A stretch of DNA of 64,000 bases from Candidatus Harrisonbacteria bacterium RIFCSPHIGHO2_02_FULL_40_20. GTDB taxonomy: Bacteria > Patescibacteriota > Minisyncoccia > UBA6257 > WO2-44-18. Both the position numbers and the translations under genes were made by a program. The notes under the pieces were generated by a model. That model ran no database searches. It was not told where the DNA came from and saw only the letters and a list, made by a program, of their open reading frames with translations. Shown here one piece after another: positions 1,174-52,335 of the stretch. Location of the stretch: assembly GCA_001818675.1 (NCBI GenBank), contig MHJF01000006.1, forward strand, positions 3,157 to 67,156. Direction: 5' to 3'. The first letter of the stretch is position 1, and every line of letters starts with the position of its first letter.

Positions 1174-1206
1174 ATAATATGATTATATATATTTTATAAA
1201 ATAAAT

Positions 1207-1231: not shown

Positions 1232-1239
1232 TTGAAATT

Positions 1240-3443: not shown

Positions 3444-3445
3444 GT

Positions 3446-3563: not shown

Positions 3564-3566
3564 ATA

Positions 3567-28273: not shown

Positions 28274-28274
28274 C

Positions 28275-28565
28275 ATGGCAATTATTATACAAGAACAAAA
28301 AAAATCTATTAATTTATTCGCGATTATTATCGTGGCGATTATTTTATTTGTTATTCTTCTTAGCGTCTACTTTCTATTTTTTGCGTCTCAACCAGTTATT
28401 GAAATTATTGTTCCAGCCCCCTTAGAAACAGCCGCGGAAATTACTAAGGCGCAATTTGATCCGGCGATAGTTATTAATAGTTCAGAATTTCGAGCTCTTC
28501 GTTCTTATGCTGGCTTGCCGACCGTTGGTTCTCTTGGCCGGTCAAACCCGTTTATTAGTTACTAG
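28275..28565 (+). CDS. small membrane protein in the pil operon (PilP-like position)
   Basis: Start taken at MAIIIQEQ; one TM helix; assignment from context only. Confidence 0.35.
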   Translation: MAIIIQEQKKSINLFAIIIVAIILFVILLSVYFLFFASQPVIEIIVPAPLETAAEITKAQFDPAIVINSSEFRALRSYAGLPTVGSLGRSNPFISY

Positions 28566-28587
28566 CAGCTAATTAACATTCATTGTT

Positions 28588-30315: not shown

Positions 30316-30333
30316 AATTTTTATATACCCACC

Positions 30334-31401
30334 ATGGATTTTAAATCAAAACTTAACGAACTTCTTTTAATAACTGCCCAACAAAATGCTTCTGATTTGC
30401 ATATTGCGGTTGGTTTTAAGCCCACTATTAGAATTGACGGCGATTTAGTGCCTTTAGCTAAAGAACAGATTGTTAATAGTGAAATCGCGGAGGGATTAGT
30501 TGGCGCGCTTTTAACGTCCGAACAGAAAGCTAAATTTTTGCAAGATCAGCAACTGGATTTCGCTTATACTTTTGAAGATAAAGCTAGATTTAGGGTTAAT
30601 GTCTTTTTTCAAAGAGGCTTTATGGCTGCAGCTTTGCGGTTAATTCCTAATAAAATTCGCACTATACAAGAATTAAGTTTACCTCCGGTGCTTTATGAAT
30701 TTACCAAGCTTTCCCAGGGGTTTGTTTTGGTGGTAGGCCCGGCCGGACATGGCAAATCTACGACGCTCGCCGCGATGTTGGATGAAGTTAATCATCAAAG
30801 AATGAATCATATTATTACCGTTGAAGATCCTATTGAATATCTTTTTACTCAAGACCGCTGCATCATTTCGCAAAGAGAAGTAAAAGTAGATACCCCTAAT
30901 TTTCACTCCGCCCTTAGTTCTCTTTTACGGCAGGACCCAGATGTGATTATGATCGGCGAGATGCGCGATGCCGAGTCTATGGCCGTAGCAATGACCGCCG
31001 CGGAAACTGGCCATCTGGTTCTGGCTACTTTGCATACTAATTCGGCGGCCCAGACTATTGATCGCATCATTGACAGCTTCCCTCCAGCCCAACAAGGGCA
31101 GATTACTTCGCAATTAGCTTCTACCTTAGTGGGTATTATTTCCGAGCGTTTAATTCCCAGAATGAATGGCGGCCGCATACCAGCGTGTGAAATTATGATT
31201 GCTAATTCTGCGGTTCGCAATTTAATCCGTGAGCGCAAGGCTTATCAGATTGATTTAGTGATTGAAACCAGCATGCAAGAGGGCATGATTACCCTTAATC
31301 GTTCCTTGGCGCATTTAGTGAAAAATAAACAGATTTCCGTAGAGAACGCGGAACTCCACTCTTTAAATCCAACCGAGTTAAGGTTGTTGTTGAAAAGATA
31401 A
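30334..31401 (+). CDS. pilT: twitching motility (pilus retraction) ATPase PilT
   Basis: Walker A VLVVGPAGHGKSTTLAAML and PilT family motifs. Confidence 0.9.
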   Translation: MDFKSKLNELLLITAQQNASDLHIAVGFKPTIRIDGDLVPLAKEQIVNSEIAEGLVGALLTSEQKAKFLQDQQLDFAYTFEDKARFRVNVFFQRGFMAAALRLIPNKIRTIQELSLPPVLYEFTKLSQGFVLVVGPAGHGKSTTLAAMLDEVNHQRMNHIITVEDPIEYLFTQDRCIISQREVKVDTPNFHSALSSLLRQDPDVIMIGEMRDAESMAVAMTAAETGHLVLATLHTNSAAQTIDRIIDSFPPAQQGQITSQLASTLVGIISERLIPRMNGGRIPACEIMIANSAVRNLIRERKAYQIDLVIETSMQEGMITLNRSLAHLVKNKQISVENAELHSLNPTELRLLLKR

Positions 31402-31432
31402 AAAATAAAAGTTGTATAATTAGTACATGAAT

Positions 31433-31550
31433 CCCGTTAGAGACAACCAATCCATGATTTCTGAAATATTATTTGATTTTAGATATAAAAAGTCGATTGC
31501 CGTTAAAACGGTTGAGTTACGGTCGCCTCTGGAGACCTGTCTCTAACGGG
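31433..31550 (-). mobile_element. 118-bp MITE-like element, copy 2 (inverted orientation relative to copy 1)
   Basis: Its reverse complement aligns with 3446-3563 over the full length; ends immediately before the pilC ATG. Confidence 0.6.
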
Positions 31551-32759
31551 ATGAAATTTCGATACAGCGCGAGGACAAAATTAGGAGAGCTTCAAGTCGG
31601 TTTTGTAGAGGCGGCTAGCCGAGAAGCAGCTTTTGGCCTTTTGAGCGGTCACGATCTTTTTATTTTGAAATTGGAAGCAGAGCTGGAGAAGCGGCCGTTC
31701 GCCGCATTGTTGGGTATTTTCCGCCGCGTGAGCAGAAAAGATTTAATGATTTTTACTCGGCAGTTCGCGACTTTATTGCAAGCCGAAGTAGTATTGGGGG
31801 ATTCTTTAAAAATCCTTCATACCCAAACTTCCAATAAAACTTTACAATCAGTTATTTTAGAAGTTTCCTCGGATATTGATGCTGGACTTTCTTTATCTCA
31901 AGCCCTGGAAAGGCATGGCGATATTTTTTCAGAATTCTATATTAATTTAATCCGTTCCGCGGAGGTCACTGGGCGTATGGATGAGTCTATGAGTTTTTTA
32001 GCCGACTTTTTAGAAAAGGATATGAATCTGGTGGCAAAAATTCGGAACGCTTTAATTTACCCGGCTTTTATTTTAGGTTTATTTTTTGTGGTGGTAATTA
32101 TTTTGGTAGTGGCGGTTTTCCCCCAATTGCGGCCGATTTTTGCAGATGCCCAAGTGGATTTGCCGTTAGTTACGAAGCTGCTTTTGGATGGCGGCGCTTT
32201 GCTTCTGGACTGGTGGTGGGCGATGGTTGTTATCTTTGGCGTTTGTATTTGGGTGATTATAGATTATTTTCGCACTAAAGAGGGAAGGGCTGTTTGGAAT
32301 CAGCTGATTATTGGTTTGCCTGTACTAGGCCAGGTTTTTAGAAAAATGTATATAGCGAGATTTGCTGAAGCGGCTAGAATTTTATTAAAAGGCGGTATTC
32401 CTATTGCTCAAGCCATAGAAATTAGCGGACATACTTTAGCCAATGTGGTTTATCGGGAAGTTTTGCAAGAAGCAGCGGAAGGAATCCGCAGAGGGGAATC
32501 GTTATCCCAGATTTTATCTAAATATTCTTCAGCTTTCCCGCCGTTAGTGAGTCAAATGGTTGCGGTTGGAGAAAGCACTGGGCGTTTAGAAGAAATGTTG
32601 GGGCGAATAGCGACTTTTTATATTCGAGAAGTGGATACGGTGGTAGATAATTTAGTAGAATTAATTCAGCCAGTGGTAATGGTGATAGTGGGTGTTTTGG
32701 TCGGATTGCTTTTTGCTTCAATTTTGATCCCGATTTATCAATTGGCGCAAGGGTTCTAA
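31551..32759 (+). CDS. pilC: type IV pilus inner-membrane platform protein PilC (GspF family)
   Basis: Two GspF repeats; start moved to MKFRYSARTK because the ORF-track N-terminus lies inside the repeat element. Confidence 0.85.
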   Translation: MKFRYSARTKLGELQVGFVEAASREAAFGLLSGHDLFILKLEAELEKRPFAALLGIFRRVSRKDLMIFTRQFATLLQAEVVLGDSLKILHTQTSNKTLQSVILEVSSDIDAGLSLSQALERHGDIFSEFYINLIRSAEVTGRMDESMSFLADFLEKDMNLVAKIRNALIYPAFILGLFFVVVIILVVAVFPQLRPIFADAQVDLPLVTKLLLDGGALLLDWWWAMVVIFGVCIWVIIDYFRTKEGRAVWNQLIIGLPVLGQVFRKMYIARFAEAARILLKGGIPIAQAIEISGHTLANVVYREVLQEAAEGIRRGESLSQILSKYSSAFPPLVSQMVAVGESTGRLEEMLGRIATFYIREVDTVVDNLVELIQPVVMVIVGVLVGLLFASILIPIYQLAQGF

Positions 32760-38376: not shown

Positions 38377-38460
38377 GGGCAGGTGGCAGAGCGGTCAATT
38401 GCATCTCGCTGTAGACGAGACGCCTTTCAGGCTACGGGGGTTCGAATCCCTCCCTGCCCA
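38377..38460 (+). tRNA. tRNA-Tyr (anticodon GTA)
   Basis: Long variable arm, anticodon loop CTGTAGA, acceptor GGGCAGG/CCTGCCC. Confidence 0.75.
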
Positions 38461-38505
38461 TAAAAATTCCCGAAGCAGTATTTATGCTGCTTCGGGAATT
38501 TTTAT
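38461..38505. terminator. perfect palindromic bidirectional terminator aaaaattcccgaagcag...ctgcttcgggaattttt
   Basis: Read directly. Confidence 0.6.
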
Positions 38506-38557
38506 GGATGGATTCGAACCTAGTAACTCTTGATGATTTTTAGTATAATCTACTGAT

Positions 38558-38628
38558 GCCGGTGTAGCTCAATGGCAGAGCAACGCTTTTGTAAAGCGAA
38601 GACAGGTGTCCGATTCACCTCACCGGCT
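38558..38628 (+). tRNA. tRNA-Thr (anticodon TGT)
   Basis: Acceptor GCCGGTG/CACCGGC, anticodon loop TTTGTAA, T-arm AGGTG-TCCGATT-CACCT. Confidence 0.7.
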
Positions 38629-38724
38629 CCCAAGCGGCAGACCTCGCATTATGCGGGGCCTTTATGTTTTAGAAGGCTTCATAGTTGGAAAGAACTTGGT
38701 TTGTTGATTTTTTAAAATAGCAGT

Positions 38725-39321
38725 ATGATGTTATTAATGTTATCAAAAGAAAAATTACAAACGCTTTATTTTAAAAGAGGGAAATCAATGCAGGATATTG
38801 CAACAATTTTGAATTGTTCTTTAAGCAAAATTAAATATTGGATGGAAAAATATTCTCTACAAACTCGATCAATTAGTGAGGCTATTTATTTAAAACATAA
38901 TCCCGATGGAGATCCATTCCGATTTAGATACCCAAAAAATATAAAAGAAGGAGTATTGTTTGGTTTGGGTCTTGGATTGTATTGGGGAGAGGGTACTAAA
39001 GCCAATCTGAATTCAATACGTTTAGGTAACACAGATCCGCAGCTTATTAAAAAATTTATTGAATTCTTGGTTCATTTTTTTTCAATTAAAAAACGAGATT
39101 TTAAATTCGGACTGCAATTATTTAATGATATAGGGGTTTTAGAGGCTATGGACTTTTGGACAAAAAACCTTAAAATAAATAGGAGCCAGTTCTTTAAACC
39201 AACAATTACAAAATCTGGCTCCATAGGCACTTATAAAAAGAAAAGTAAGTATGGGGTCATAACGGTAATGTATCATAATAAAAAATTAAGAAATTTGCTG
39301 GTTAGTTTATTGCCAATGTAG
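38725..39321 (+). CDS. LAGLIDADG-family homing-endonuclease-like protein (single-motif type) with an N-terminal HTH
   Basis: LFGLGLGLYWGEGTK occupies the LAGLIDADG position and downstream blocks are I-CreI-like (DFKFGLQLF); the stop overlaps the first 10 nt of the intron-containing tRNA-Thr. Confidence 0.45.
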   Translation: MMLLMLSKEKLQTLYFKRGKSMQDIATILNCSLSKIKYWMEKYSLQTRSISEAIYLKHNPDGDPFRFRYPKNIKEGVLFGLGLGLYWGEGTKANLNSIRLGNTDPQLIKKFIEFLVHFFSIKKRDFKFGLQLFNDIGVLEAMDFWTKNLKINRSQFFKPTITKSGSIGTYKKKSKYGVITVMYHNKKLRNLLVSLLPM

Positions 39322-39577
39322 CTCAGCTGGTAGAGCAACTCCATGGTAGGCCGCTGGCCCTGCCCACTATGCAGGTAACCGCATAGTGAATCCTGAATAA
39401 CGGTTAAAGACCTTTCGTTAGGTTAAGACCGTGGCACGTAAAAAGGCCCGAACGACTGACAAGGGTTCGCCTAAGGCGGAAAGATACAGTCTAGCCCTTC
39501 TATAATCCGTTTAAGCTACGGAAAAATGAAGGTATAAGCGAAGGAGTAGGTCGCCGGTTCAATCCCGGCCATTGGCT
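39312..39577 (+). tRNA. tRNA-Thr (anticodon GGT) interrupted by an intron of about 193 nt (exons 39312-39347 and 39541-39577)
   Basis: 5' half GCCAATG..GCTC-AGCTGGTA-GAGC-A-ACTCC-ATGGT; 3' half AA-GGAGT-AGGTC-GCCGG-TTCAATC-CCGGC-CATTGGC-T; the acceptor and anticodon stems pair perfectly across the gap. Confidence 0.7.
39348..39540 (+). other. putative group I intron in the anticodon loop of tRNA-Thr(GGT)
   Basis: 5' exon ends in U, intron ends in G (omega-G); gccg just inside the intron can pair with the exon end UGGU to form P1; internal blocks resemble the R/S core elements (agatacagtctagccc); length is similar to the small bacterial tRNA group I introns. Confidence 0.5.
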
Positions 39578-39747
39578 CAAAAATCGCTTCGCGATTTTTA
39601 CTTTTTTGATCTAATAAAAAAGTTGAAATATCATAATTCAGTCAGTACTAAATCTTTGCGACAACACATTTCTCTTGAAATTTTTCGGACAGAAGAGTAT
39701 TCTTTATGTAGAAGAAATTAGAAGGCGGGAAAAACAGATTAATTCGT

Positions 39748-39915
39748 ATGCCATCAAAATTCAGCGCTAATTTAATCAAGTTAAAATGTTCGGTTTGTAG
39801 CCGGTTTAATTATTCTACCCGTAAGAATAAAAAATTGGTGACTCGAAAAATAGAATTTAAGAAATTTTGTAATCATTGCCGCAAACACACGATACATAAA
39901 GAATCTAAGAGATAA
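39748..39915 (+). CDS. rpmG: 50S ribosomal protein L33 (absent from the ORF track)
   Basis: MPSKFSANLIKLKCSVCSRFNYSTRKNKKLVTRKIEFKKFCNHCRKHTIHKESKR with a zinc-ribbon CxxC...CxxC, followed by a terminator hairpin. Confidence 0.8.
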   Translation: MPSKFSANLIKLKCSVCSRFNYSTRKNKKLVTRKIEFKKFCNHCRKHTIHKESKR

Positions 39916-40010
39916 AAAATCCTCTGTTATTCAGGGGATTTTTTATTATGTACAAATCATCATTTATAGGTATAATCTTTTTATCGGTTTTGTACTTTGA
40001 AAGGAGAAAA

Positions 40011-40649
40011 ATGTTTTGGTTCCAAGCAGTTGGAAATCTGTTGATGGGAATTTTAGATATGGCAGTGGGTATTTTCGTAGTATTTTTTATTGGATCATTA
40101 TATGGCCACGATGTGGGTTGGGCAGGTTATTTTTTAGGCGCGGCTTTAGGTGTATCTCCTGATATTGATCTTGTTTATCTTTTAATCCGCCGCGGCGGAT
40201 TTTCTGAAAATCATCACGAATATCTTACTCATCGTCCTATTATCGGTATTCCTGCGGCAGTTTTAATTGGCGGATTATTGGGTGGATGGTTTTGGGCGTT
40301 TATTGCTGGGATTTGCGTTTGTTGTCACTACGTACATGATACTAAAGGATTTGGGGGCGGGGGAATTGCTTGGTTCTGGCCATTTTCTAGATTTTATTAT
40401 TCCCCGTTTGGAATAGGGGATCCGGAACAGACTAAGAAAGTTAGAAATCATCATAAAGCGATTGAGCGCTTGATGCTTTCTCCTAGCCGTAAAGTGATCG
40501 TAGAGAATGCTATTGTCGCGATTTTAATTATGATTGTTGGAGGTAATCTTTGGGGTTGGCAGATTGGATTTTTATTAGCTGGCGCTTTTTGGGTCGGTAT
40601 CTTTACCATTTGGTTTTTATATTCTCGGTATGCTGTAAAAAGTTTATAA
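40011..40649 (+). CDS. membrane-bound metal-dependent hydrolase-like protein (DUF457/YdjM-like)
   Basis: Polytopic membrane protein with His-rich motifs (ENHHEYLTHRP, CHYVHD); start taken at MFWFQAV. Confidence 0.4.
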   Translation: MFWFQAVGNLLMGILDMAVGIFVVFFIGSLYGHDVGWAGYFLGAALGVSPDIDLVYLLIRRGGFSENHHEYLTHRPIIGIPAAVLIGGLLGGWFWAFIAGICVCCHYVHDTKGFGGGGIAWFWPFSRFYYSPFGIGDPEQTKKVRNHHKAIERLMLSPSRKVIVENAIVAILIMIVGGNLWGWQIGFLLAGAFWVGIFTIWFLYSRYAVKSL

Positions 40650-40712
40650 ACCAGTTTCGACTTAATGTTGAAACTGGCTTTTTTTATCAAATTTATTAGA
40701 ATCAAGAAGCAA

Positions 40713-40783
40713 GGGGGTGTCGTCCAACGGCAGGACTCTGGTCTCCAAAACCAGGTATTACGGTTCGAATCCGTACGCCCCCG
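40713..40783 (+). tRNA. tRNA-Trp (anticodon CCA)
   Basis: Acceptor GGGGGTG/CGCCCCC, anticodon loop CTCCAAA. Confidence 0.75.
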
Positions 40784-41894: not shown

Positions 41895-42041
41895 AAACGT
41901 GGCGCCCTATTAGAAATAGGGCGCTATTTATTATTTCCTAACCAATACCACGGGCGTAAGCCCGTGGTTATTTACTTAATTGTTCCAGCTTTGCAGCCTC
42001 TTTTCGCTTATCCACAACGCTTGGTTAAGCGTTCATAACGT

Positions 42042-42063: not shown

Positions 42064-42303
42064 ATGTCAAAATTATTTTTTATTGCTATTGTGGTTGTCG
42101 CGTTAGTTGCGGCAGGAATTTTGTATTGGTTAAATCAGCCGGAGCCAATCAAAACTACCGGCGATGCTATTGAAGCGGTATCCGAATCGCCTCTGGCTGA
42201 CATTGGCACCGAAAGCAATCCTGGAAAGAAATTGCCGGATGTCAATCCAGTCACCCAAACCAATCCTTTTAAAGATGTTTATCAAAATCCTTTTGCTCCT
42301 TAA
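42064..42303 (+). CDS. small secreted/membrane-anchored hypothetical protein
   Basis: N-terminal TM helix, Pro-rich tail. Confidence 0.4.
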   Translation: MSKLFFIAIVVVALVAAGILYWLNQPEPIKTTGDAIEAVSESPLADIGTESNPGKKLPDVNPVTQTNPFKDVYQNPFAP

Positions 42304-44241
42304 ATGATAAAACTCAAAGTTTATTTTTCTAAAGATTTTTTAGTAACAGCTATTATTTTTTTGTTCGCGGTTTTAGCGAGCGGCTTTATTATTCAGGCAA
42401 CTTACGCTCAAGTCAGCCGGAATTCGTCCATTTCTTTTAAAAAAGACTCACAAGGGCTTTTTACTGTAACGATTAGAGATCCGCAAGGCATTAAGGAATT
42501 TTCATTACAGCCTAAGGGTAAATTTCCTTATGGCGGAGGAATTAGCCAGTGTCCGACGAGTCGGGTGATTGCCAATGTTGCTTTTGATGATCCTTTTGAT
42601 TTTACTCCAGCAATGGGCGCTTATGTTATTGATTGCCAGAACAATCAAGATGATTTGCAGATTCCGTCGCCAAAGGATGGGTTGACAGTATCGGCTCGGG
42701 TTGGAGTGGAGGCAGAGCTAAAAAAAGAATCGGTTCAAGAAGCTCCTGCTTCAGTAGCGCCGGTTAAACCAACTTCTGCTCCGGAAAAAGCGCCTTTGGC
42801 AGAAATTATTTATCCGGTAGCGGAATTGGGAAATTGCGGCACGGAATTTGAGTGTCGAGCTTATTGCGATCAGCCGGAGAATTTAAACAAGTGTGTTGCG
42901 TTTGCCGAATCTCATGGATTGATGACTAAAGAAGACGCAGATTTAGCCCGAAAGTTTAAAGACGTTGTGAAAAATGGCGGTCCTGGCGGCTGTAATTCTC
43001 AACAATCTTGCGAAGCTTACTGCAATGATATTGACCACATTGATACTTGCCTTGTTTTTGCGGAGCAACATGAAATTTTAAGCGGCAAGGAATTAGAAGA
43101 AGCTAAAAAAGTTCAGTCAGCGATTAAGCGGGGAGCGAAAATGCCCGGCAATTGCCGCAGTAAAGGCGCTTGTGAAGCTTATTGCACCAACTCCGATAAT
43201 ATGGATGAGTGTATCGCTTTTGCCAAAGAGAATGGTTTTATGACAGAAGAAGAATTAAGGGAAGTAGAAAAGTTTTTGCCATTGATGAAGAGCGGGCAAA
43301 CTCCTGGCGCTTGCAAATCTAAGACAGCTTGTGAAGCTTATTGCGAAGCAGAGGGAAATTTTGATGAATGCATTGCTTTCGCGGAGAAAGCCGGCCTGAT
43401 CTCCGATGAAGAACTTAAACATATAGATAAATTTAAAAAAGCCGGAGGCGTAGGTCCGGGCGGATGCCGCGGCCGGTCTTGCCAGACTTATTGTGAAAAG
43501 CCGGAAAATCAAAAAGCCTGTTTTGCGTGGGCAAAAGAAAACGGTTTTATTGAAGAAGCGGATTTGCGGCGGATGGAGGAAGGAAAGCAGCAGTTGAAAA
43601 AGGCGTTGGAGCAGATGCCGCCTGAAGCTAAAGAATGCGTGGATGCGATTATCGGGCCGGGCGGCTTAGAAGGCGATTTCGTTGGTGGGCCGGAAATCGG
43701 CGATCAAATTCGTGTTTGTTTTGAACAGGCATTTTCTCAATTTAGCGGTCCAGGCGGCCCTGGTGAACATGGAGGTTTTCCAGGGGGCGATTTTTCGGGT
43801 CCCGGCGGTTGTACTAGCGAAGAAGAATGCCAAGTTTATTGCCAAGAAAATCCGGATGATTGTCAGGGATTTGGTCCGCCGGGCGGCGGAGGCGGTCCAG
43901 GCGGTGGAGGATCTGGTGGTGGCGGTTTTTCCGGTCCCGGCGGCTGTAGTAATCCGACAGAATGCATGTCTTATTGCAAGGAACATTATAATGATCCTGC
44001 TTGCAGTGCTTTTGGAGGCGGTGTTGAATCCAGCTCTGTTCCTAGCCAGAATTACCAACAACAATATCAACAGTCACCGCTAGTTCCTCAATATATTCAA
44101 CCTTCTGGCGGGTCGTCATACGAAATTCCTATCACGCCGGAGCTTTGCGTTAACTTCCAAGCCGTTCCTGCTTGTTCTTATGTTGGGGCGCCAGATTCTC
44201 AAAATTATCAGCTTTGTAAAAAGTGTTATCCGGATAAATAA
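42304..44241 (+). CDS. secreted repeat protein with seven tandem 4-Cys modules (C-x5-C-x3-C-x7-9-C followed by an AFAxxxG helix), a Gly-rich linker and a Gln-rich tail
   Basis: N-terminal signal/TM; repeated CxxxxxCEAYCxxxxxxxEC(I/V)AFAxxxG units; family not recognised. Confidence 0.6.
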   Translation: MIKLKVYFSKDFLVTAIIFLFAVLASGFIIQATYAQVSRNSSISFKKDSQGLFTVTIRDPQGIKEFSLQPKGKFPYGGGISQCPTSRVIANVAFDDPFDFTPAMGAYVIDCQNNQDDLQIPSPKDGLTVSARVGVEAELKKESVQEAPASVAPVKPTSAPEKAPLAEIIYPVAELGNCGTEFECRAYCDQPENLNKCVAFAESHGLMTKEDADLARKFKDVVKNGGPGGCNSQQSCEAYCNDIDHIDTCLVFAEQHEILSGKELEEAKKVQSAIKRGAKMPGNCRSKGACEAYCTNSDNMDECIAFAKENGFMTEEELREVEKFLPLMKSGQTPGACKSKTACEAYCEAEGNFDECIAFAEKAGLISDEELKHIDKFKKAGGVGPGGCRGRSCQTYCEKPENQKACFAWAKENGFIEEADLRRMEEGKQQLKKALEQMPPEAKECVDAIIGPGGLEGDFVGGPEIGDQIRVCFEQAFSQFSGPGGPGEHGGFPGGDFSGPGGCTSEEECQVYCQENPDDCQGFGPPGGGGGPGGGGSGGGGFSGPGGCSNPTECMSYCKEHYNDPACSAFGGGVESSSVPSQNYQQQYQQSPLVPQYIQPSGGSSYEIPITPELCVNFQAVPACSYVGAPDSQNYQLCKKCYPDK

Positions 44242-44243
44242 GA

Positions 44244-44459
44244 ATGGAAAAGTTACCTACAGAACCAAGCCGTGAAAATTTAGAGTTAGAAATTAATCAG
44301 CTTTTAGAGCGATTAGATGAGTTGGGTGATTTATATAGCCCGGAATTAGCGGAACAGTGGTGGGCCGTAGAAGAAGAAGCGAGATGCGGCAAGGACCGGC
44401 AAAAAGCCAAAGAACGCCTTGGAGATTTTATAAAACTATTAGAATCGGCTAAAAGATAG
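44244..44459 (+). CDS. small acidic hypothetical protein
   Basis: 71 aa, starts 3 nt after the preceding gene. Confidence 0.4.
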   Translation: MEKLPTEPSRENLELEINQLLERLDELGDLYSPELAEQWWAVEEEARCGKDRQKAKERLGDFIKLLESAKR

Positions 44460-44540
44460 ATTATATTTTTTTGTTTAAGATATTTGGTGTAAAGAAAGAC
44501 TATTTTAACGCCGTTTTTTAATGATAATATAAGATATATA

Positions 44541-45332
44541 ATGAAATTTTTTGGAGGCGAACCTCAGCATTTAGAAACAGAAGAAAAACCTCATTCGGCA
44601 GGAGAGAATTTAGAAACTCAAAAAGAAAAAGCATTACAATCATTAGAAATAGAGCGGAGCGTTAAATTAATCGGCAATGCTAATAATAAGAGAATTAATG
44701 AGGTGTTTTTGGTAGAGTTGCATGGCGATGGCTCAGCAATATTTAAGCCGGCCAGTGGAGAAAAGTTTCCATTTGATTGGGCCGGGGAGCTTTATAAAAA
44801 TGAACGGGCGTCCTATTTGGTGGATAAATTTTTAGGATTTAATTTAGTGCCCACGACTGTTATCAGGGAAGTAAATGGGGAAATCGGCAGTATGCAGGAA
44901 TTTGTTTTTGAATCGACAGTCGGATTGGAAATTGACGATAAATTATTAAAAACTAATTATCGAGATGCTCTTAAAAAAATGTGGGTTTTTGATTATATAG
45001 TTTGGAATGGCGACAGACATGACGCAAATTTTCTTGTTAATTCGGATGGTTTACATGCTATTGATCACGGATTAACGTTTGTAAGGGAGCATATTCAACC
45101 CAGTATATATGAAGACTTTTATGACGAGTCGATGCCGGAAGATATTATTAGAAATTTGGAACAATTCTCTGATTCAGCCGAACAACAAAATCTTTTACGA
45201 CAGGCAATGTTAGAAATTTTAAATGAAAGAACAGTGGATGCTTGTTTGAAAAGAATTGAATTTATGGCCGCCATTTTAAAGAAATATAAAGGCGTAATAC
45301 CCAAATCGCTAAAGCCGTCTTTAAATTACTAA
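44541..45332 (+). CDS. atypical protein kinase with a PI3/PI4-kinase / HipA-like catalytic core
   Basis: Catalytic loop WNGDRHDANFLV and activation segment AIDHGLTF (GDRHxxN ... DxG). Confidence 0.45.
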   Translation: MKFFGGEPQHLETEEKPHSAGENLETQKEKALQSLEIERSVKLIGNANNKRINEVFLVELHGDGSAIFKPASGEKFPFDWAGELYKNERASYLVDKFLGFNLVPTTVIREVNGEIGSMQEFVFESTVGLEIDDKLLKTNYRDALKKMWVFDYIVWNGDRHDANFLVNSDGLHAIDHGLTFVREHIQPSIYEDFYDESMPEDIIRNLEQFSDSAEQQNLLRQAMLEILNERTVDACLKRIEFMAAILKKYKGVIPKSLKPSLNY

Positions 45333-45348
45333 AATTGTCTAAATTTTC

Positions 45349-45615
45349 ATGCAATTTGTAGAAATTTATAAATTAAAAACCGGCGGAGAACAAGAAGTAA
45401 TCGCGCGATGTGAAATAGGGGATGGCGGTATTGTTAAATGTTTAGGCGACAAAATTTTTGTTAGTAATTTAGAAAAAGAGGGGATTTTTGAATATTCTGA
45501 ATCCGGCAGATCAGAAACAAAACTTTTTCCTAAAGACGGATTAAAATTTTTAGAACAGTTGTCATATAATTTTAAATCTGGTTATCTAAACGCTTCGGAT
45601 ATTAAAAATATTTGA
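45349..45615 (+). CDS. hypothetical protein
   Basis: 88-aa ORF. Confidence 0.35.
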   Translation: MQFVEIYKLKTGGEQEVIARCEIGDGGIVKCLGDKIFVSNLEKEGIFEYSESGRSETKLFPKDGLKFLEQLSYNFKSGYLNASDIKNI

Positions 45616-45696
45616 CGCGACTTGTTCTTTATGGAATACTAACTCAAGAGTTAGATGCTAGTTGTTCTTTAAAATTCTTTTTTAAAGGAGGCGATC

Positions 45697-47046
45697 ATGA
45701 GGCGTTTTTGCGTGTTGCTAGCGTTGGTTTTTAGTTTTTCTTTGACTGGCTGCCAAATCTGCCTTACCGTTCCTAATCCTGTAAAAATAGTTTGGGATCT
45801 TTTTGATAAACCAAGCGGAACGGAAGTTGTTTTCGGGACATACCAAGATTTAGAGCGTTTATTTTATGATCCGATGCGTTTAAAGCCATCTAGGCTTTTT
45901 AATGCCGCTCTTGATGGTATAGCGGAAGAATTGAAATCTAAAAACGCGGAGTTTAATTTTTCCAGGATTGACGATTCCGCGTCCGTCGTAAAAGCAAAAA
46001 AACATTTTGCTGCCGAATATAAAAAAGCTGAAGATTTAAACGCGGCTATTAATAACAGCGCGCAATTGGAATTTGCGGCGTTAAAAGGATTATTGGATGC
46101 CGTAGATAGCTCCCATACCGCTTTTATCACGCCTGAAAGGCTTAATGAGATTAGAAAAAGCAGAAGAGGAAAAAGCGGGTATGCCGGCATTGGCGTAGTT
46201 TTAAAAAAATTAGAAGATAATTTTTACTATATTGATTGGGTTACGCCTGGCAGTCCGGCTGCCGAAGTTGGCCTGCGAAAGTTCGATCGGCTGGTTAAAG
46301 TTAACGCGCTTGCTATTCCAAACGATATTGGCGAAATTTTTAAATTATTTCGAGGGGAAGAAAGAATTTCAGTTAAAGTTACGGTTGAGAGAGGAGGGAA
46401 AACTCTTGATTTTACTATCGCGCAAAGAGAGTTTGATTTACATTTAATCACTAGCCGTTATATTAACAGCGGGAATTCACGCTTTATCTATATTGAGCTC
46501 CGCGGTTTTGATCCTGATTCGGCTACAAAACTCAAAAATATTATCCGGCGCGCAGAGAAAGAAAACGTAAAAGGCATTATTCTGGATTTAAGAGGAAATC
46601 GCGGCGGACTGCTTGATTCCTTGATGGTGGCTTTAGAAATTTTTTCGAAAAAGGAAAGCGTAATGTTTATTCGCAGGCATTATGAAGAACAAGAGCTTCT
46701 TGTTTCTGGTAATCCCTTAACTGATTTGCCGATGGTGATGCTGGCAGATTCCCGTTCAGCTTCAGCCGCCGAAATTATGGCCGCTGTTCTTCAAGAAGCA
46801 AAAAGGGCGATAGTGGTAGGAACGAAGACAGCCGGCGCGGTGGAAGTTTCCATTCAGATATCCTTGCCATTAGGTTCGGCTATGACAGTGGCAATCCAGG
46901 AAGTTTTTACTGCGGAAGGAACAGTATTGGAAAAAGTGGGCGTTAAACCGGACAAAGAAGTTCAACTTTCTAAGGATGATATCAGCGCCGCTCAAGACAT
47001 GCAGTTAGAAGCGGCCCTAGTTGAATTATCCAAGTTAGTGAAATAG
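45697..47046 (+). CDS. ctpA: S41-family C-terminal processing peptidase (lipoprotein)
   Basis: Lipobox LTGC; PDZ-like region; catalytic motifs ILDLRGNRGGLLDS and Ser/Lys VMLADSRSASAAEIMA. Confidence 0.8.
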   Translation: MRRFCVLLALVFSFSLTGCQICLTVPNPVKIVWDLFDKPSGTEVVFGTYQDLERLFYDPMRLKPSRLFNAALDGIAEELKSKNAEFNFSRIDDSASVVKAKKHFAAEYKKAEDLNAAINNSAQLEFAALKGLLDAVDSSHTAFITPERLNEIRKSRRGKSGYAGIGVVLKKLEDNFYYIDWVTPGSPAAEVGLRKFDRLVKVNALAIPNDIGEIFKLFRGEERISVKVTVERGGKTLDFTIAQREFDLHLITSRYINSGNSRFIYIELRGFDPDSATKLKNIIRRAEKENVKGIILDLRGNRGGLLDSLMVALEIFSKKESVMFIRRHYEEQELLVSGNPLTDLPMVMLADSRSASAAEIMAAVLQEAKRAIVVGTKTAGAVEVSIQISLPLGSAMTVAIQEVFTAEGTVLEKVGVKPDKEVQLSKDDISAAQDMQLEAALVELSKLVK

Positions 47047-47047
47047 A

Positions 47048-47082
47048 TAAAAGTAAAAGCCCACCGACATTATGTCGGGGGC
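47048..47082. terminator. bidirectional terminator aaaagcccaccgacattatgtcgggggctt
   Basis: Hairpin with the gacat..atgtc core between convergent genes. Confidence 0.55.
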
Positions 47083-49620: not shown

Positions 49621-52335
49621 ATGAGAAAAATTGTCACTTTAATAAGCGCGGGAGTGTTTCTTTTCTTTTCTGGAGCTTTAGCGCAGGTTTCCGCTCCTAC
49701 TAATTTTCCATCGCCTATAGATGAGCCGGAATTAGCCGCCGTGGAACCCATATCCGCGATTGAGGCCACCAGGCCGATTGTTTATCTTCAAGATTTTTCT
49801 CTTTCCGGATCGGAATTTAAACCGGGAGGAAGCATAGGTATTAGATTTACCGCGGTTAGCGGCAATGAAGTTGCTTTAAGCGACGTTCAATATTCCGTTG
49901 CCCTTTTAAAAAATGTGTTATTGTTTGACGAAAAAATTTTTGAGGAAAAACTTTTAATCTATCCAGAAGATAAAATCAGAAAGAGTATCCAATATAAATT
50001 GCCGGAAAAGCTGGCGGATGGAGAATATTTGATCGGCGTTTATTTAGTGAATGCGAAAGGAATGACTTATGGTTTTGCTGACCCTTTGCCTATTAAGATT
50101 TCCGGAGGCGGCGCGTTTGTGGAGCTAAGTAATCCCCAGATTATTGTTCGCGGCGCAACCTATCCCGCGGCTGCTGGAGTAACAGTTAAATCTAATGACA
50201 CGATAAGAGGCGAAGCAGCTTTCCATAATCTGTCTAATGAAACTATTTTAGTAATGCCACGCGTCAAAATTTTAAAACGAGGATTGAGCGATCAAATTCT
50301 TCAATCTTATGATGAACCGGCATTTTCTTTAGACGGCGATGACAGCGATATTTTATCTTTTGATTTTAGATATAAATATTCGGATCCGGAAGCGTTGGTT
50401 GCTGATATAGTTCTACTTGATAAAGAGGGCAATACAATTTCTAATCATGCTTTATTTAGATGGGTAACCGAGGGTATCGGAGGAGAAGTGGTGGCTATTC
50501 AAGCTCTGCCGCCTGACCCCACTTTTAAAACTTATAAAGCAGTTGTTTATTATTATGGGCCTGCTGATGCCCAAACTAAAGCCGGATCGGCGGAATTAGT
50601 AGTTACTTTAATTGATCAAGGCAAAGTTATCGGGCAAACAACAGAATCCATTAATCTTAATAGATTAGATAGTAGAACGGTTACGGTGATCGCCAATGCT
50701 TACGCGGAATCGCCCGAGATAAAAGCAGAAATAGTAAAAAGCGGGAAAGTTTTGGATAACTATTCTATTACTCAACCGCCGATTAAAGCCGTTTTTCCAG
50801 CCACTGCGGCATTATGGATTGTTGTTGCTAGCTTAGCAGCTGGCTTAATCGTGTTTTTAGTAAAAAAAATAGGTATGAGAAAATCACAAGTTATTTTACC
50901 TCTTTTGTTTGTCGCTGGATTTTTATTTTTAAACGTGGACATTGCGAAGGCCTCTATTGTTGAAGTTCGTAATGATTACGGTTTTGGTTATTCTTTGCAA
51001 GACCCAACGCATAATCAGACTGTGATAGCTGGCGATACCATCAGGTTTTCTGGCCAAATTTATCAAGAAGGATGTGGGAATGTTACTAATACTTCAGATA
51101 AAGATAAAATTAAATTTTATATTGACAATACGGAATTATCCGGTTATTTATCCCTAACAGAAGTTTTTTGTGGAGCGGGAAAATATTGTTTAAGTTTTAA
51201 TTATTCTTTTTCCGTACCGGCGGATTTAGCCGCGGGACCGCACAAAGCCGGATTTTTCTTTGCTGGTTATCATCCTTGGATTTGCGAAGCCGATCCTAAT
51301 AATCCTGTTTGCCAGAGGCCGTTAGAAGAGCAAGGATATTATTATTTAGATGTTTACGAGCATATTTTAGTGAGTAATCCGGGAACAGAGCAGCCAACTA
51401 ATCTTTCCAGTTTTTGTCCGGTTCCCGGAACTCGAGCGACGATTGCTTGGTTCCCGGTTAGCGGCGCGAAATTTTACGCTTTGAGAATTAATAATTTAGC
51501 TGATGATTGGACAGGGACTTGTTCATCTGCGGCCGGCGATTTTTGCCAGGATATTCAAGCTCCAGCCACTTCTTTTAGTTTTATTTCTCGCCTCAACAAT
51601 GCTTATCAATGGTGGGTTCATGCTTGTAATGATATTTCTTGCGGCAATGCGGCTTTAGGCCAAAATTTTATTTGTCGGGATCGTTTGCCCCAATGTTCAG
51701 ATTCTTTAGATAACGATGGCGACGGAAGAATAGATTATCCCAATGATCCGGGCTGTTCTTCGGCTGATGACGATGATGAAACTAATATCGTAAACCCGCC
51801 TCAATGTTCCGATGGCTTGGATAATGATGGCGATGAGCTTTCTGATTATCCCAATGATCCGGGCTGTTCTTCGGCTGATGACGATGATGAGCTTAATGAT
51901 GGAGGTAGCGGCGGAGGCGGCAATGGCGGTGGAAGTGGAGGAGGTAGCGGCGGAGGTGGAGAACAATTGCCCCAATGTTCAGATTCTTTAGATAACGATG
52001 GCGACGGTTTGCCGGATTTTCCAAATGACCCTAGCTGTTTTTCGGCAACCGACAATAATGAAAATGTTTCTTTCATCATTGAATTCAATTCTAGCCCAGC
52101 GTCTATTGGAATTGGAGGCGTCTCTAATCTTATTTGGTCTACTGTTGGTTTAAATTCTTGCTCTATTAATCAGGGCATTGGATCGGTTTTGGTTAATGGT
52201 TCACGCCCGGTGAGCCCCGCCCAGACTACAACTTATACCCTCAATTGTTTGCAGGGGCCAAATTCTAATAATCCGATTTCTCGACAAGCCACTGTGCAGG
52301 TTAGAAGTTCAAGTTTAGAAGAGGTTATCCCTTAG
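49621..52335 (+). CDS. large surface protein with three TSP3-like Ca-binding repeats (CSDSLDNDGDG...DYPNDPGCSSADDDDE), a Gly/Ser linker and an internal TM hairpin
   Basis: Signal peptide; internal DNA repeats of about 120 bp at 51688-52030. Confidence 0.55.
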   Translation: MRKIVTLISAGVFLFFSGALAQVSAPTNFPSPIDEPELAAVEPISAIEATRPIVYLQDFSLSGSEFKPGGSIGIRFTAVSGNEVALSDVQYSVALLKNVLLFDEKIFEEKLLIYPEDKIRKSIQYKLPEKLADGEYLIGVYLVNAKGMTYGFADPLPIKISGGGAFVELSNPQIIVRGATYPAAAGVTVKSNDTIRGEAAFHNLSNETILVMPRVKILKRGLSDQILQSYDEPAFSLDGDDSDILSFDFRYKYSDPEALVADIVLLDKEGNTISNHALFRWVTEGIGGEVVAIQALPPDPTFKTYKAVVYYYGPADAQTKAGSAELVVTLIDQGKVIGQTTESINLNRLDSRTVTVIANAYAESPEIKAEIVKSGKVLDNYSITQPPIKAVFPATAALWIVVASLAAGLIVFLVKKIGMRKSQVILPLLFVAGFLFLNVDIAKASIVEVRNDYGFGYSLQDPTHNQTVIAGDTIRFSGQIYQEGCGNVTNTSDKDKIKFYIDNTELSGYLSLTEVFCGAGKYCLSFNYSFSVPADLAAGPHKAGFFFAGYHPWICEADPNNPVCQRPLEEQGYYYLDVYEHILVSNPGTEQPTNLSSFCPVPGTRATIAWFPVSGAKFYALRINNLADDWTGTCSSAAGDFCQDIQAPATSFSFISRLNNAYQWWVHACNDISCGNAALGQNFICRDRLPQCSDSLDNDGDGRIDYPNDPGCSSADDDDETNIVNPPQCSDGLDNDGDELSDYPNDPGCSSADDDDELNDGGSGGGGNGGGSGGGSGGGGEQLPQCSDSLDNDGDGLPDFPNDPSCFSATDNNENVSFIIEFNSSPASIGIGGVSNLIWSTVGLNSCSINQGIGSVLVNGSRPVSPAQTTTYTLNCLQGPNSNNPISRQATVQVRSSSLEEVIP

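What the first reader, a model, noticed from the sequence alone, without database searches (positions are those of the whole stretch)
42064..47046. Secreted-protein neighbourhood: 4-Cys tandem-repeat protein, atypical PI3/4-kinase/HipA-like kinase and S41 protease
42304-44241 encodes a signal-anchored protein with seven repeats of a 40-aa module, C-x5-C-x3-C-x7-9-C followed by the helix (I/V)AFAxxxGxxxxxEL. It also has a Gly-rich spacer and a Gln/Tyr-rich tail. It matches no family I recognise. It is followed closely by a 71-aa acidic protein (3-nt gap), then by a 263-aa kinase with the GDRHxxNFL...IDHG catalytic signature of the PI3K/PI4K/HipA fold, and then by a lipoprotein C-terminal processing protease. 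An episymbiont-style effector or adhesin module is one possible reading; co-function is not shown.
Basis: partly seen in the sequence, partly recalled or inferred. Interest (0 to 1): 0.5.

Follow-up and report, generated by a model that had tools for sequence, protein, structure and literature searches.

The report
Two unrelated gene pairs, not one module
The six genes are real, but they are not one functional unit: the part worth attention is an uncharacterised secreted protein built from cysteine-stapled helical modules that, across Parcubacteria, always follows a tiny membrane-protein gene, while the kinase forms a separate pair with a different small gene and the protease stands alone.

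Summary

In 80 non-redundant loci encoding relatives of the Cys protein, the kinase, the 71-aa ORF and the 88-aa ORF never occur. An S41 gene appears once, at a different position.

It is a single-pass membrane protein whose tail carries NP…NPFK..Y.NPF motifs. It lies next to the Cys gene in 78 of 78 loci that can be assessed.

The kinase instead pairs with the 88-aa ORF, in 5 of 5 independent loci.

The Cys modules are helical (three helices each, pLDDT>90), so they are not knottin- or EGF-like. They match nothing in Pfam, NCBIfam or the PDB. All four cysteines are present in 1334 of 1342 module copies. The family has about 1,700 clusters at 50% identity.

My best reading is a disulfide-stapled helical surface scaffold held by, or assembled with, the small membrane partner. 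That mechanism is inferred, not shown.

The parts
42064..42303 (+). tm79: a 79-aa single-pass membrane protein. It has an N-terminal TM helix (aa 4-22) and a roughly 55-aa tail carrying the conserved motifs NPxxxKxPxxNPxxxxxNPFKxxYxNPF. It is the obligate partner of the Cys-repeat gene, and its stop codon directly abuts that gene's ATG.
   Evidence: ORF. (family alignment and motifs); tblastn finds a homolog upstream of the Cys gene in 77 of 90 loci; the family HMM hits 78 of 80 non-redundant loci; 77 are adjacent upstream on the same strand, 1 has one gene in between, and the other 2 contigs are truncated upstream. No Pfam or NCBIfam family. Membrane topology is ambiguous.
42304..44241 (+). 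A 645-aa secreted Cys-repeat protein with 36 Cys. It belongs to a Parcubacteria-wide uncharacterised family.
   Evidence: (100% identical to a Candidatus Harrisonbacteria hypothetical protein; more than 1,468 homologs).
42304..42408 (+). Sec-type signal peptide, aa 1-35. It has a Lys-rich n-region, a 19-aa hydrophobic core and a TYA|Q site; the family consensus there is AQA.
   Evidence: Read directly from the sequence, with the family consensus. Cleavage is inferred; no dedicated signal-peptide predictor was available.
42421..42708 (+). N-terminal Ig/FN3-like β-sandwich, aa 40-135, with a nearly invariant Cys pair (C83, C111).
42823..43602 (+). Five full Cys4 modules (aa 174-223, 226-275, 279-330, 333-380, 384-433). 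Each has the form GPGG-C-x5-C-E-x-Y-C-x8-C-[ILF]-x-F-A-E-x-x-G...EEL...KK and folds as three helices. They share 27-48% pairwise identity.
   Evidence: HMM domain E-values 1e-19 to 1e-23; pLDDT 88-96; helices 181-188/191-203/209-222 and so on. The four Cys are invariant in 72 homologs and in 1334 of 1342 distinct module copies.
43621..43737 (+). Helical cap after module 5 (aa 440-478), with a Cys pair at C445 and C472.
   Evidence: helices 440-450 and 463-478, pLDDT 78-91. (C472 invariant).
43798..44016 (+). Two mini-modules (aa 499-524 and 544-571). They keep GPGGC-x5-C-x3-C-x6-8-C but lack helices 2 and 3, and they sit in Gly-rich linkers.
   Evidence: HMM E 2.7e-8 and 6.7e-9; pLDDT 80-91 in the modules, below 50 in the linkers. 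Family members carry 0-5 such mini-modules.
44017..44241 (+). A Gln/Tyr/Pro-rich low-complexity segment (aa 572-610), then a C-terminal 4-Cys knob, C..F..VP.C.Y.G.PDSQNY..CK.CYPDK (aa 611-645), then the stop codon.
   Evidence: motif found in 31 of 120 homologs; 34 by the wider search. (76% identity over 30 aa to L010). (pLDDT 64-77).
44244..44459 (+). A 71-aa acidic ORF predicted to be helical. It is lineage-specific and not conserved with either gene pair.
   Evidence: No tblastn hit in any of 95 other loci. It sits in a cluster of 2 members and is annotated as hypothetical.
44541..45332 (+). A 263-aa PI4K-type-II-like kinase. It has no signal peptide or TM segment, so it is taken to be cytoplasmic.
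45349..45615 (+). p88: an 88-aa protein that is the conserved partner of the kinase. Its C-terminal motif KDGxKFLEQLxxNFKSGYLNAS is nearly invariant.
   Evidence: 65 homologs at 50-81% identity. (the motif). In L011, L012, L093, L094 and L095 it lies directly downstream of a PI3_PI4_kinase gene.
45697..47046 (+). A 449-aa S41 C-terminal-processing-type protease with a PDZ domain and an LTGC lipobox. It is not co-conserved with either pair.
   Evidence: Peptidase_S41 1.4e-36; PDZ_2 2.2e-7; prc TIGR00225 at 191 bits, below the 218.6 cut-off.
41899..41968 (+). Two terminator-like hairpins after the upstream α/β-hydrolase gene. They mark the start of the six-gene same-strand block.
   Evidence: pattern scan only.
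47064..47078 (+). A terminator-like hairpin after the S41 gene. No comparably placed intergenic hairpin lies inside the block.
   Evidence: pattern scan only.

Best explanation
The block is a lineage-specific juxtaposition of three independent units, possibly co-transcribed.

Unit 1 (42064-44241) is a Parcubacteria-wide two-gene envelope cassette.
- A small single-pass membrane protein (tm79) is translated immediately before a Sec-exported protein.
- The invariant core of the exported protein is a rigid array of five three-helix modules. Each module is locked by four invariant cysteines, most likely as two disulfides: C2-C4 across the helix-1/helix-2 hairpin, and C1-C3 tying the GPGG N-terminal segment to helix 1.
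- The array is preceded here by an Ig-like domain. It is followed by flexible Gly- and Gln-rich spacers carrying mini-modules and a C-terminal Cys knob.
- The only universally retained parts are the helical array and tm79. I therefore infer that the array is held at, or assembled on, the membrane through tm79. One possible mode is that the NP...NPF tail lies along the repeat surface.
- The variable C-terminal half, which in relatives carries LamG or Kazal inserts, would then be the outward-facing, ligand-contacting part. In short, this is a surface scaffold or adhesin-like protein plus its anchor.

Unit 2 (44541-45615) is a cytoplasmic PI4KII-like kinase with its conserved 88-aa partner. The partner may be a regulator or a substrate; the kinase's substrate is unknown.

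Unit 3 is a stand-alone lipoprotein S41 protease.

Shown: the gene identities, the folds, the repeat anatomy and the co-occurrence statistics.
Inferred: export, disulfide pairing, the tm79-array contact and the surface or adhesive role.
For: Pairing:
- tm79 is adjacent in 77 of 80 non-redundant loci, separated by one gene in 1 more, and the remaining 2 contigs are truncated upstream.
- Clustered tm79 homologs occur only next to the Cys gene: near 64 loci, far 0. The more sensitive HMM scan adds only three marginal hits (E 2e-4 to 8e-4) more than 1.5 kb away.
- No other neighbour family recurs in more than 7 of 81 loci.
- The tm79 stop codon abuts the Cys gene's start codon.

Kinase unit:
- p88 follows a PI3_PI4_kinase gene in 5 of 5 independent loci, and none of them contains a Cys protein.

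Core array:
- Family members have 5 full modules (rarely 6-8) plus 0-5 mini-modules.
- The cysteines are invariant.
- pLDDT stays above 88 across aa 170-450 and above 78 to aa 480, including the inter-module linkers, which argues for a rigid array.

Disulfides rather than free thiols:
- Every structural unit has an even number of Cys: 2 in the β-sandwich, 4 in each of 7 modules, 2 in the cap and 4 in the knob.
- Isolated conserved Cys pairs occur in the non-repeat domains.
- Homologs carry Kazal inserts in the same chain. By general knowledge, Kazal domains are obligately disulfide-bonded.

Extracellular or adhesive context:
- The N-terminus is Sec-like.
- The N-terminal domain is Ig/FN3-like.
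- Homologs carry LamG / TafC-fimbrial-like inserts.
Against: - There is no direct evidence that tm79 and the helical array touch.
- The topology of tm79 is ambiguous by the positive-inside rule: about 1.9 K/R before the TM helix and 2.6 after it. The NP tail could therefore be cytoplasmic.
- I could not inspect model coordinates, so the disulfide pairing comes from helix geometry, not from measured S-S distances.
- All-or-none conservation of the four Cys fits a Cys4 metal site equally well.
- The window protein lacks both the LamG insert and the hydrophobic C-terminal tail that most relatives have. Its retention at the surface and any adhesive function are therefore less clear than for those relatives.
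- The six genes in this genome share a strand, have short gaps and have no intergenic terminator-like hairpin between them. Co-expression here cannot be excluded.
Confidence: 0.6

Rival explanations
1. Metal-binding array. Each module's four invariant cysteines, helped by the conserved His/Asn at C4-4 and the acidic residues at C4-1 and C4-2, would bind one metal ion (Zn or Cu). The secreted protein would then be an extracellular metal buffer, scavenger or chaperone, perhaps serving importers that lack a classical binding protein.
For: - The four Cys are conserved all-or-none in 1334 of 1342 modules, with H/N at C4-4 in 86% and D/E at C4-2 and E at C4-1 in 63-69%.
- Some loci place the pair directly after Znu-like ABC-ATPase and ABC-3 permease genes with no binding-protein gene (L002).
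- One locus places it next to a ZIP transporter (L004).
- One locus places it after a Cu P-type ATPase, DUF411 and a multicopper oxidase (L009).
Against: - Counted over 80 non-redundant loci, metal-related genes are not enriched near the pair: 9 of 389 genes within ±4 positions against 6 of 456 farther away (Fisher p=0.31).
- The protein also carries isolated Cys pairs in non-repeat domains, and relatives carry Kazal inserts. Both point to a disulfide-forming compartment.
- The N-terminus is Sec-like and has no twin-arginine motif. This argues against export of a pre-loaded cofactor such as an Fe-S cluster.
Confidence: 0.15
2. The Cys protein, the kinase and the S41 protease would work together as one secreted effector or adhesin module, for example with the protease processing the Cys protein or the kinase being exported alongside it.
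For: - In this genome the six genes lie on one strand with gaps of 0-81 nt. Terminator-like hairpins occur only before the first gene and after the last.
- S41 proteases act on C-terminal tails, by general knowledge of the family. Both tm79 and the Cys protein have conserved C-termini.
Against: - The genes are not co-conserved. The kinase, p88 and the 71-aa ORF occur in 0 of 80 Cys-family loci, and S41 occurs once at another position.
- None of 5 kinase/p88 loci contains a Cys protein or S41.
- The kinase family found by the word-indexed search is tiny (19 hits), compared with about 1,700 clusters for the Cys family.
- The kinase and p88 have no export signal.
- L096, the only other contig with this gene order, is the same lineage.
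Confidence: 0.05
3. tm79 is not an anchor. It would instead be a dedicated export or assembly factor, or a regulator, for the Cys protein. For example, it could be a membrane-tethered peptide that keeps the array unassembled until release, or that couples the array to the wall or S-layer. The Cys protein would then be released or wall-bound.
For: - The linkage and translational coupling are the same as for the main model.
- The window protein lacks any membrane-anchoring tail of its own.
- tm79 topology is unresolved.
Against: - tm79 has no Cys, no recognisable enzymatic or chaperone domain and no family hit.
- No evidence separates this reading from the anchor model.
Confidence: 0.2

Closest known systems
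Helicobacter cysteine-rich proteins (HcpA/B/C; Sel1-like repeat family, Pfam PF08238)
   Same: Both are secreted bacterial proteins built from tandem α-helical repeat units stapled by intramodule disulfides into a rigid solenoid-like array. This comparison draws on general knowledge of the Hcp family.
   Different: - No Sel1 or any other Pfam hit was found.
- The unit here is a 51-54-aa three-helix module with four invariant Cys and a GPGG-C...C..YC...C.F signature. Hcp units are roughly 36-aa helix pairs with one disulfide.
Gram-positive wall-associated surface proteins and adhesins (signal peptide, folded N-terminal domains, Gly/Pro-rich spacer, C-terminal sorting signal)
   Same: The overall layout matches: a Sec signal, an Ig-like domain plus a repeat array, low-complexity Gly/Gln/Pro spacers and, in most relatives, a short hydrophobic C-terminal tail ending in a basic residue. 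Some relatives also carry lectin-like LamG inserts.
   Different: - There is no LPXTG or other recognised sorting motif (sequence; no NCBIfam sorting-domain hit for relatives).
- The window protein has no hydrophobic tail at all.
- An obligate upstream small membrane protein is not part of the classical scheme.
Two-gene surface-layer systems with a large outer protein and a small membrane-anchored partner (for example Sulfolobus SlaA/SlaB)
   Same: Adjacent genes encode a large exported protein and a single-pass membrane partner, and the large protein is presumed to sit on the partner. This is a conceptual analogy from general knowledge.
   Different: - There is no sequence or fold relationship.
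- tm79 has only a roughly 55-aa non-helical tail with NP motifs, not a long coiled-coil stalk.
- Lattice formation was not assessed, and the protein's high Cys content would be unusual for an S-layer protein.
Type II phosphatidylinositol 4-kinase (PI4K IIα) and the bacterial SCO1664 family (TIGR03843). This entry concerns the kinase.
   Same: - Pfam PI3_PI4_kinase scores above threshold.
- The FKP lysine, the N-x-DR-H-x-x-N catalytic loop and the I-D-H-G metal-binding Asp are conserved.
- TIGR03843 scores E 6e-27.
   Different: - It is a minimal 263-aa protein with none of the membrane-binding inserts of PI4KII.
- It scores 94.5 bits against the TIGR03843 cut-off of 172.4, so it is not an equivalog.
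- It pairs with an 88-aa protein of unknown fold.
- The substrate is unknown; a lipid substrate in a CPR bacterium is not implied.
HipA toxin kinases (HipBA toxin-antitoxin systems)
   Different: - HipA_2 scores only E 0.021, below threshold.
- The partner gene lies downstream and shows no HTH or any other family hit. By general knowledge, HipB is an HTH protein encoded upstream.
- PADLOC gives only weak catalytic-loop matches.
CtpA/Prc C-terminal processing peptidases (MEROPS S41). This entry concerns the protease.
   Same: It has Peptidase_S41 and PDZ domains. Motifs resembling the Ser (SASAAE) and Lys (GTKTAG) catalytic motifs are visible in the sequence (interpreted from general knowledge of the family).
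   Different: It scores below the NCBIfam subfamily and equivalog cut-offs. It is lipoprotein-anchored, and no substrate can be assigned.

Membership tests
Pfam PI3_PI4_kinase (PF00454), for the kinase | Profile match above the curated gathering score | tested here: met
   42.6 bits against a cut-off of 27.1, E 8.9e-11
Pfam PI3_PI4_kinase (PF00454), for the kinase | Catalytic residues: the ATP-binding Lys, the DRHxxN catalytic loop and the metal-binding Asp of the DFG-equivalent | tested here: met
   K69 (FKP), D158-R159-H-x-x-N163 and D175 (IDHG). K69, D158, R159 and D175 are invariant in 17 homologs.
Pfam PI3_PI4_kinase (PF00454), for the kinase | PI3K/PI4K-type kinase fold | tested here: met
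SCO1664 family (NCBIfam TIGR03843 equivalog) | Score at or above the curated cut-off | tested here: not met
   94.5 bits against 172.4. It is related to the family but not a member.
HipA toxin kinase | HipA-family profile match above threshold | tested here: not met
HipA toxin kinase | Adjacent HTH antitoxin (HipB-like) | tested here: not met
   Neither the 71-aa nor the 88-aa neighbour has an HTH or any other family hit.
Peptidase S41 (C-terminal processing protease) | S41 catalytic domain together with a PDZ domain | tested here: met
   Peptidase_S41 at 1.4e-36, PDZ_2 at 2.2e-7, PDZ_6 at 7.5e-7
Peptidase S41 (C-terminal processing protease) | Membership of the prc subfamily (TIGR00225) or the CtpA/B/C equivalogs | tested here: not met
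   191.3 bits against 218.6. The Ctp equivalogs score far below their cut-offs.
Bacterial lipoprotein (for the protease) | Lipobox [LVI][ASTVI][GAS]C after a hydrophobic N-terminus | tested here: met
   MRRFCVLLALVFSFSLTGC. This is a sequence pattern only.
Knottin or EGF-like disulfide-rich mini-domains (for the Cys module) | Six-Cys, β-rich or irregular knotted fold | tested here: not met
   Each module has four Cys and is predicted as three α-helices at pLDDT above 88.
Sel1-like repeat / Helicobacter Hcp family (for the Cys module) | Sel1 (PF08238) profile match; roughly 36-aa α/α unit | tested here: not met
   No Sel1 hit at E≤0.1. The unit here is 51-54 aa with three helices.
Kazal-type inhibitor domain | Kazal_1 or Kazal_2 profile match | tested here: not met
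   No hit in the window protein. Hits in relatives P0067, P0077, P0079 and P0112 fall in separate inserted domains, not in the Cys4 modules.
LPXTG / sortase-anchored surface protein | C-terminal LPXTG-type motif, then a TM helix and a basic tail | tested here: not met
   The protein ends ...CKKCYPDK with no hydrophobic segment. Relatives with hydrophobic tails hit no NCBIfam sorting domain.
Uncharacterised Parcubacteria Cys4-helical-repeat family (defined here) | Five or more full modules with four invariant Cys, plus an adjacent upstream tm79-type gene | tested here: met
   Five full and two mini modules. tm79 directly abuts the gene. The family-wide pattern is shown.
Cys4 metal-binding repeat | Bound metal, or tetrahedral S4 geometry | not testable with these tools
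Gene context gives no enrichment for metal-related genes (p=0.31).

The most novel reading that the evidence does not exclude
The five-module Cys4 helical array would be a previously undescribed peptide-gripping or metal-loaded extracellular repeat fold. Together with the NP...NPF-tailed membrane protein, it would form a CPR-specific surface-anchoring or metal-handling system that replaces the sortase/LPXTG or binding-protein solutions of other bacteria. It would therefore be a core part of how Parcubacteria build the cell surface they use to contact hosts.
Probability: 0.2. Interest if true: 0.6.

Novelty: new variant of a known kind. Interest (0 to 1): 0.4.

Why it matters
Parcubacteria are among the most abundant uncultured bacteria. 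They are thought to live attached to other cells, yet almost nothing is known about their surface proteins.

This analysis yields three things:
- A large protein family (about 1,700 clusters at 50% identity) with a new Cys-stapled three-helix repeat that has no Pfam, NCBIfam or PDB relative.
- An obligately linked small membrane partner for that family.
- A second, rarer conserved pair: a minimal PI4KII-like kinase with an 88-aa partner.

All three are concrete targets for domain curation, structure determination and interaction tests. The analysis also corrects a tempting but wrong inference that adjacent genes form one effector module.

Tried and rejected
1. My single genome-contig scan used the protein alone as query and returned only one distant locus, L001, so that scan was wasted. 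The metagenome scan with alignment A1 and the exact-sequence look-ups supplied the comparative loci instead.

2. Metal-homeostasis link. The first six loci looked suggestive (ZnuBC-like, ZIP and a Cu ATPase/oxidase). A near-versus-far count over 80 non-redundant loci gave 9/389 against 6/456, p=0.31. I downgraded this to a minority rival.

3. Looking for paired loss of Cys to deduce disulfide connectivity. All four Cys are present in 1334 of 1342 modules, and the exceptions are truncations, so this was uninformative.

5. Sequence profiles against PDB chains, using both the whole family and a module-only alignment. These returned only low-complexity or chance matches.

6. PADLOC for a defence-system reading of the kinase and its small ORFs. 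Only weak catalytic-loop matches to candidate systems appeared.

7. tm79 topology by the positive-inside rule was ambiguous.

8. Literature searches found nothing describing the Cys family, and only one incidental mention of SCO1664.

9. I did not attempt a fused tm79+Cys prediction. A paired alignment could not be submitted, and no coordinates or PAE are returned to judge docking.

Full report
**Origin and gene content**

The 645-aa protein is 100% identical to a hypothetical protein of a Candidatus Harrisonbacteria MAG (RIFCSPLOWO2_02_FULL; Parcubacteria/CPR). The neighbouring proteins are deposited as hypothetical proteins of the same MAGs. Six + strand ORFs fill 42064-47046:
- tm79 (79 aa)
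- the Cys-repeat protein (645 aa)
- an acidic 71-aa ORF
- a 263-aa kinase
- an 88-aa ORF (p88)
- a 449-aa S41 protease

Gaps between them are 0, 2, 81, 16 and 81 nt. Terminator-like hairpins lie before the first gene (41899-41968) and after the last (47064-47078). The only other + strand terminator-like matches fall inside coding sequence. Co-transcription in this genome is therefore possible but unproven.

**Checking the observation**

The Cys motif is real and far beyond chance. There are seven matches to C-x4-5-C-x3-C-x6-8-C, against at most two in 20,000 shuffles. A module HMM recovers exactly these seven copies and nothing else in the window.

The period is 51-54 aa, not 40. Only five copies are full modules. 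Copies 6 and 7 are roughly 25-aa mini-modules embedded in Gly-rich linkers.

The kinase signature is confirmed at three levels:
- Pfam PI3_PI4_kinase scores above its gathering threshold.
- The catalytic residues are invariant across 17 homologs.

The protein resembles the SCO1664 family (TIGR03843, E 6e-27) but scores below the family cut-off.

The protease has S41 and PDZ domains and an LTGC lipobox.

The kinase, the 71-aa ORF and p88 show no hydrophobic N-terminus. Only tm79, the Cys protein and the protease are envelope proteins.

**Anatomy of the Cys protein**

An AF2 model built on a 72-sequence alignment (mean pLDDT 78) gives these parts:
- a long N-terminal hydrophobic helix with a TYA|Q site (the family consensus is AQA);
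- a β-sandwich at aa 40-135 (pLDDT 93-97) with a nearly invariant Cys pair;
- a disordered Pro/Ala/Glu linker;
- five three-helix modules from about aa 174 to 433, with pLDDT 87-96 across aa 170-450, plus a two-to-three-helix cap (aa 440-478, pLDDT 78-91) carrying another Cys pair;
- Gly-rich disordered linkers around two folded mini-modules;
- a disordered Gln/Tyr/Pro-rich stretch;
- a small C-terminal 4-Cys unit.

In each module C1 sits just before helix 1, C2 and C3 lie one turn apart in helix 1, and C4 lies in the second turn of helix 2. The modules are therefore helical, not knottin- or EGF-like.

By helix-hairpin geometry the natural disulfide pairing is C2-C4 and C1-C3. This is my inference, because the coordinates could not be inspected.

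**The family**

The word-indexed search returned more than 1,468 homologs, all from Patescibacteria/Parcubacteria where a source name exists. An exhaustive phmmer search with the five-module region found 1,706 50%-identity clusters at E≤1e-3 and 888 at E≤1e-30.

Across 1342 distinct module copies the four Cys are present in 1334, and the exceptions are truncated matches. Other strongly conserved positions are:
- Tyr/Phe before C3 (99%);
- Pro (85%) and Gly (93%) in the GPGG segment before C1;
- His/Asn at C4-4 (86%);
- acidic residues before C4.

Members have five full modules (rarely six to eight) plus zero to five mini-modules. The variable parts are:
- the N-terminal β-sandwich, which many metagenomic relatives lack (their matches start at about aa 165);
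- LamG inserts, whose closest NCBIfam match is the C-terminal part of TafC fimbrial proteins;
- tandem Kazal inserts;
- the C-terminus, which is either the 4-Cys knob seen here (34 of 120), a short hydrophobic tail ending in a basic residue (67 of 120), or both (7 of those).

The tail matches no known sorting-signal model.

**Neighbourhood test**

I collected 7 loci by exact-protein look-up and 80 by a metagenome scan with the family alignment.

- tblastn with the six window proteins found tm79 homologs immediately upstream of the Cys gene in 77 of 90 loci. It found no kinase, no p88, no 71-aa ORF, and a single S41 hit at a different position in L013.
- With a tm79 family HMM, 78 of 80 non-redundant loci have the gene. 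Of these, 77 are adjacent upstream on the same strand and one has a single gene in between. The remaining two contigs end less than 300 nt upstream.
- In the protein clustering, tm79 homologs occur only next to the Cys gene, and no other neighbour family recurs in more than 7 of 81 loci. The HMM scan adds only three marginal hits (E 2e-4 to 8e-4) elsewhere in the loci.
- The kinase has few relatives in the word-indexed search (19).
- In all five independent loci examined (L011, L012, L093, L094, L095) the kinase is followed within a few nucleotides by a p88 homolog of 53-60% identity. None of those loci has a Cys protein or S41 nearby.
- p88 is a compact family (65 hits) with a nearly invariant C-terminal motif, KDGxKFLEQLxxNFKSGYLNAS.
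- The only other contig with the six-gene order (L096) has identical gene lengths and flanks. It is the same lineage, not independent evidence.

Two different conserved pairs emerge instead.

**tm79**

The family has a short N-terminus, one TM helix with an aromatic belt, and a tail of about 55 aa. The tail is variable in its first half and ends in NP.(e)(n)K.P.(l)NP....(t)NPFK..Y.NPF. It contains no Cys and has no family hit. Charge counts on the two sides of the TM helix do not settle its orientation.

**Mechanism**

The helical array and tm79 are the only universally retained elements, and the two genes are translationally coupled. The most economical reading is that they form a complex at the membrane. 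The disulfide-stapled array would be the conserved base, and the flexible, domain-swapping C-terminal half would be the exposed part.

Three observations favour disulfides:
- every structural unit has an even number of Cys;
- isolated conserved Cys pairs occur in the β-sandwich and the cap;
- relatives carry Kazal inserts in the same polypeptide. Kazal domains are disulfide-dependent by general knowledge.

A Cys4 metal site in each module is not excluded. It was suggested by metal transporter and oxidase genes next to the pair in several early loci. A systematic near-versus-far count then showed no enrichment (p=0.31).

The kinase+p88 pair is best read as a cytoplasmic kinase with a small regulator or substrate. 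I found nothing that indicates its target. The S41 lipoprotein is an ordinary envelope protease with no assignable partner here.

**Comparison with known systems, and novelty**

Functionally, the Cys protein most resembles disulfide-stapled helical repeat proteins such as the Helicobacter Hcp/Sel1-like family. In layout it resembles Gram-positive wall-associated surface proteins. It fails the membership tests for Sel1, Kazal, knottin/EGF and LPXTG proteins.

The module is a domain family without a curated model or a structural relative, and it carries an unusual obligate small partner. I file it as a new variant of a known kind: a secreted Cys-rich repeat surface protein. It is not categorically new.

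The kinase is a new, minimal member of the PI3K/PI4K-like superfamily, closest to type II PI4K. The protease is ordinary.

**Verdict**

The functional-neighbourhood interpretation is not supported. The real finding is the tm79 + Cys4-helical-repeat cassette, with the kinase+p88 pair as a secondary result. I rate interest as moderate (0.4). The family is large, taxonomically focused and wholly uncharacterised, but the proposed mechanism rests on inference.

Noticed in passing
window 27201-32759 (+): A type IV pilus gene cluster: PilO (PF04350), two T2SSE ATPases (PilB- and PilT-like) and a T2SSF platform protein. A small TM ORF at 28227-28565, ending ...GRSNPFISY, gives a weak hit (E 1.2e-4) to the tm79 family HMM. 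The hit may reflect only a TM helix plus an NPF ending.
   Followed up: partly
window 49621-52335 (+): A 904-aa secreted protein with three acidic double-disulfide repeats (CSDxLDNDGDGxxDYPNDPGC; NF033662 at 29 bits, below the cut-off of 41), a Gly-rich stretch and a central TM-like segment. It is another Cys-containing envelope protein of this genome.
   Followed up: no
homologs P0007, P0018, P0028 and others (not in the window protein): Of 120 family members, 67 end in a short hydrophobic tail preceded by a P-[PT]-S-S-like motif, for example PPPTSSITSPLGLLLAPFLWLVR. It looks like a C-terminal sorting or anchoring signal but matches no NCBIfam sorting-domain model. It may be a CPR-specific signal.
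   Followed up: partly
homologs P0067, P0077, P0079, P0112: Some family members carry tandem Kazal-type inhibitor domains (Kazal_2, E 3e-6 to 2e-5) inserted between mini-modules. I do not know of many bacterial proteins with Kazal domains. The window protein's C-terminal knob (VPACSYVGAPDSQNYQLCKKC) loosely resembles the Kazal core (PVCGxDGxxYxxxC) but gives no profile hit.
   Followed up: partly
window 45349-45615 and loci L011, L012, L093-L095: p88 is more conserved (50-81% identity) than the kinase it accompanies (31-42%). Its C-terminal motif KDGxKFLEQLxxNFKSGYLNAS is nearly invariant. No family or fold has been assigned to it.
   Followed up: partly
L002 6216-10586; L004 6909-10241; L009 2385-10268: In a minority of genomes the tm79+Cys pair lies directly after Znu-like ABC-ATPase and ABC-3 permease genes with no binding-protein gene. 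In others it lies next to a ZIP transporter, or after a Cu ATPase, DUF411 and a multicopper oxidase. This is not statistically enriched overall (p=0.31), but the binding-protein-less Znu operon is curious.
   Followed up: yes
window 38377-40783: A tRNA-rich stretch (tRNAs at 38377-38460, 38558-38628 and 40713-40783) contains a 198-aa ORF (38725-39321) with a GLGLGLYWGEGTK motif. From memory, that motif resembles LAGLIDADG homing endonucleases; the only Pfam hit is a weak HTH_23. The stretch also encodes ribosomal protein L33 and a YdjM-family membrane protein.
   Followed up: no
L013 (Ga0209542_10077390) 54-3841: A relative whose Cys protein is 91% identical keeps the upstream α/β-hydrolase and tm79. 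Further upstream it has an S41-like gene (42% identity to the window's protease), where the window has a tRNA and the YdjM gene. Local gene order therefore shifts even between close relatives.
   Followed up: no
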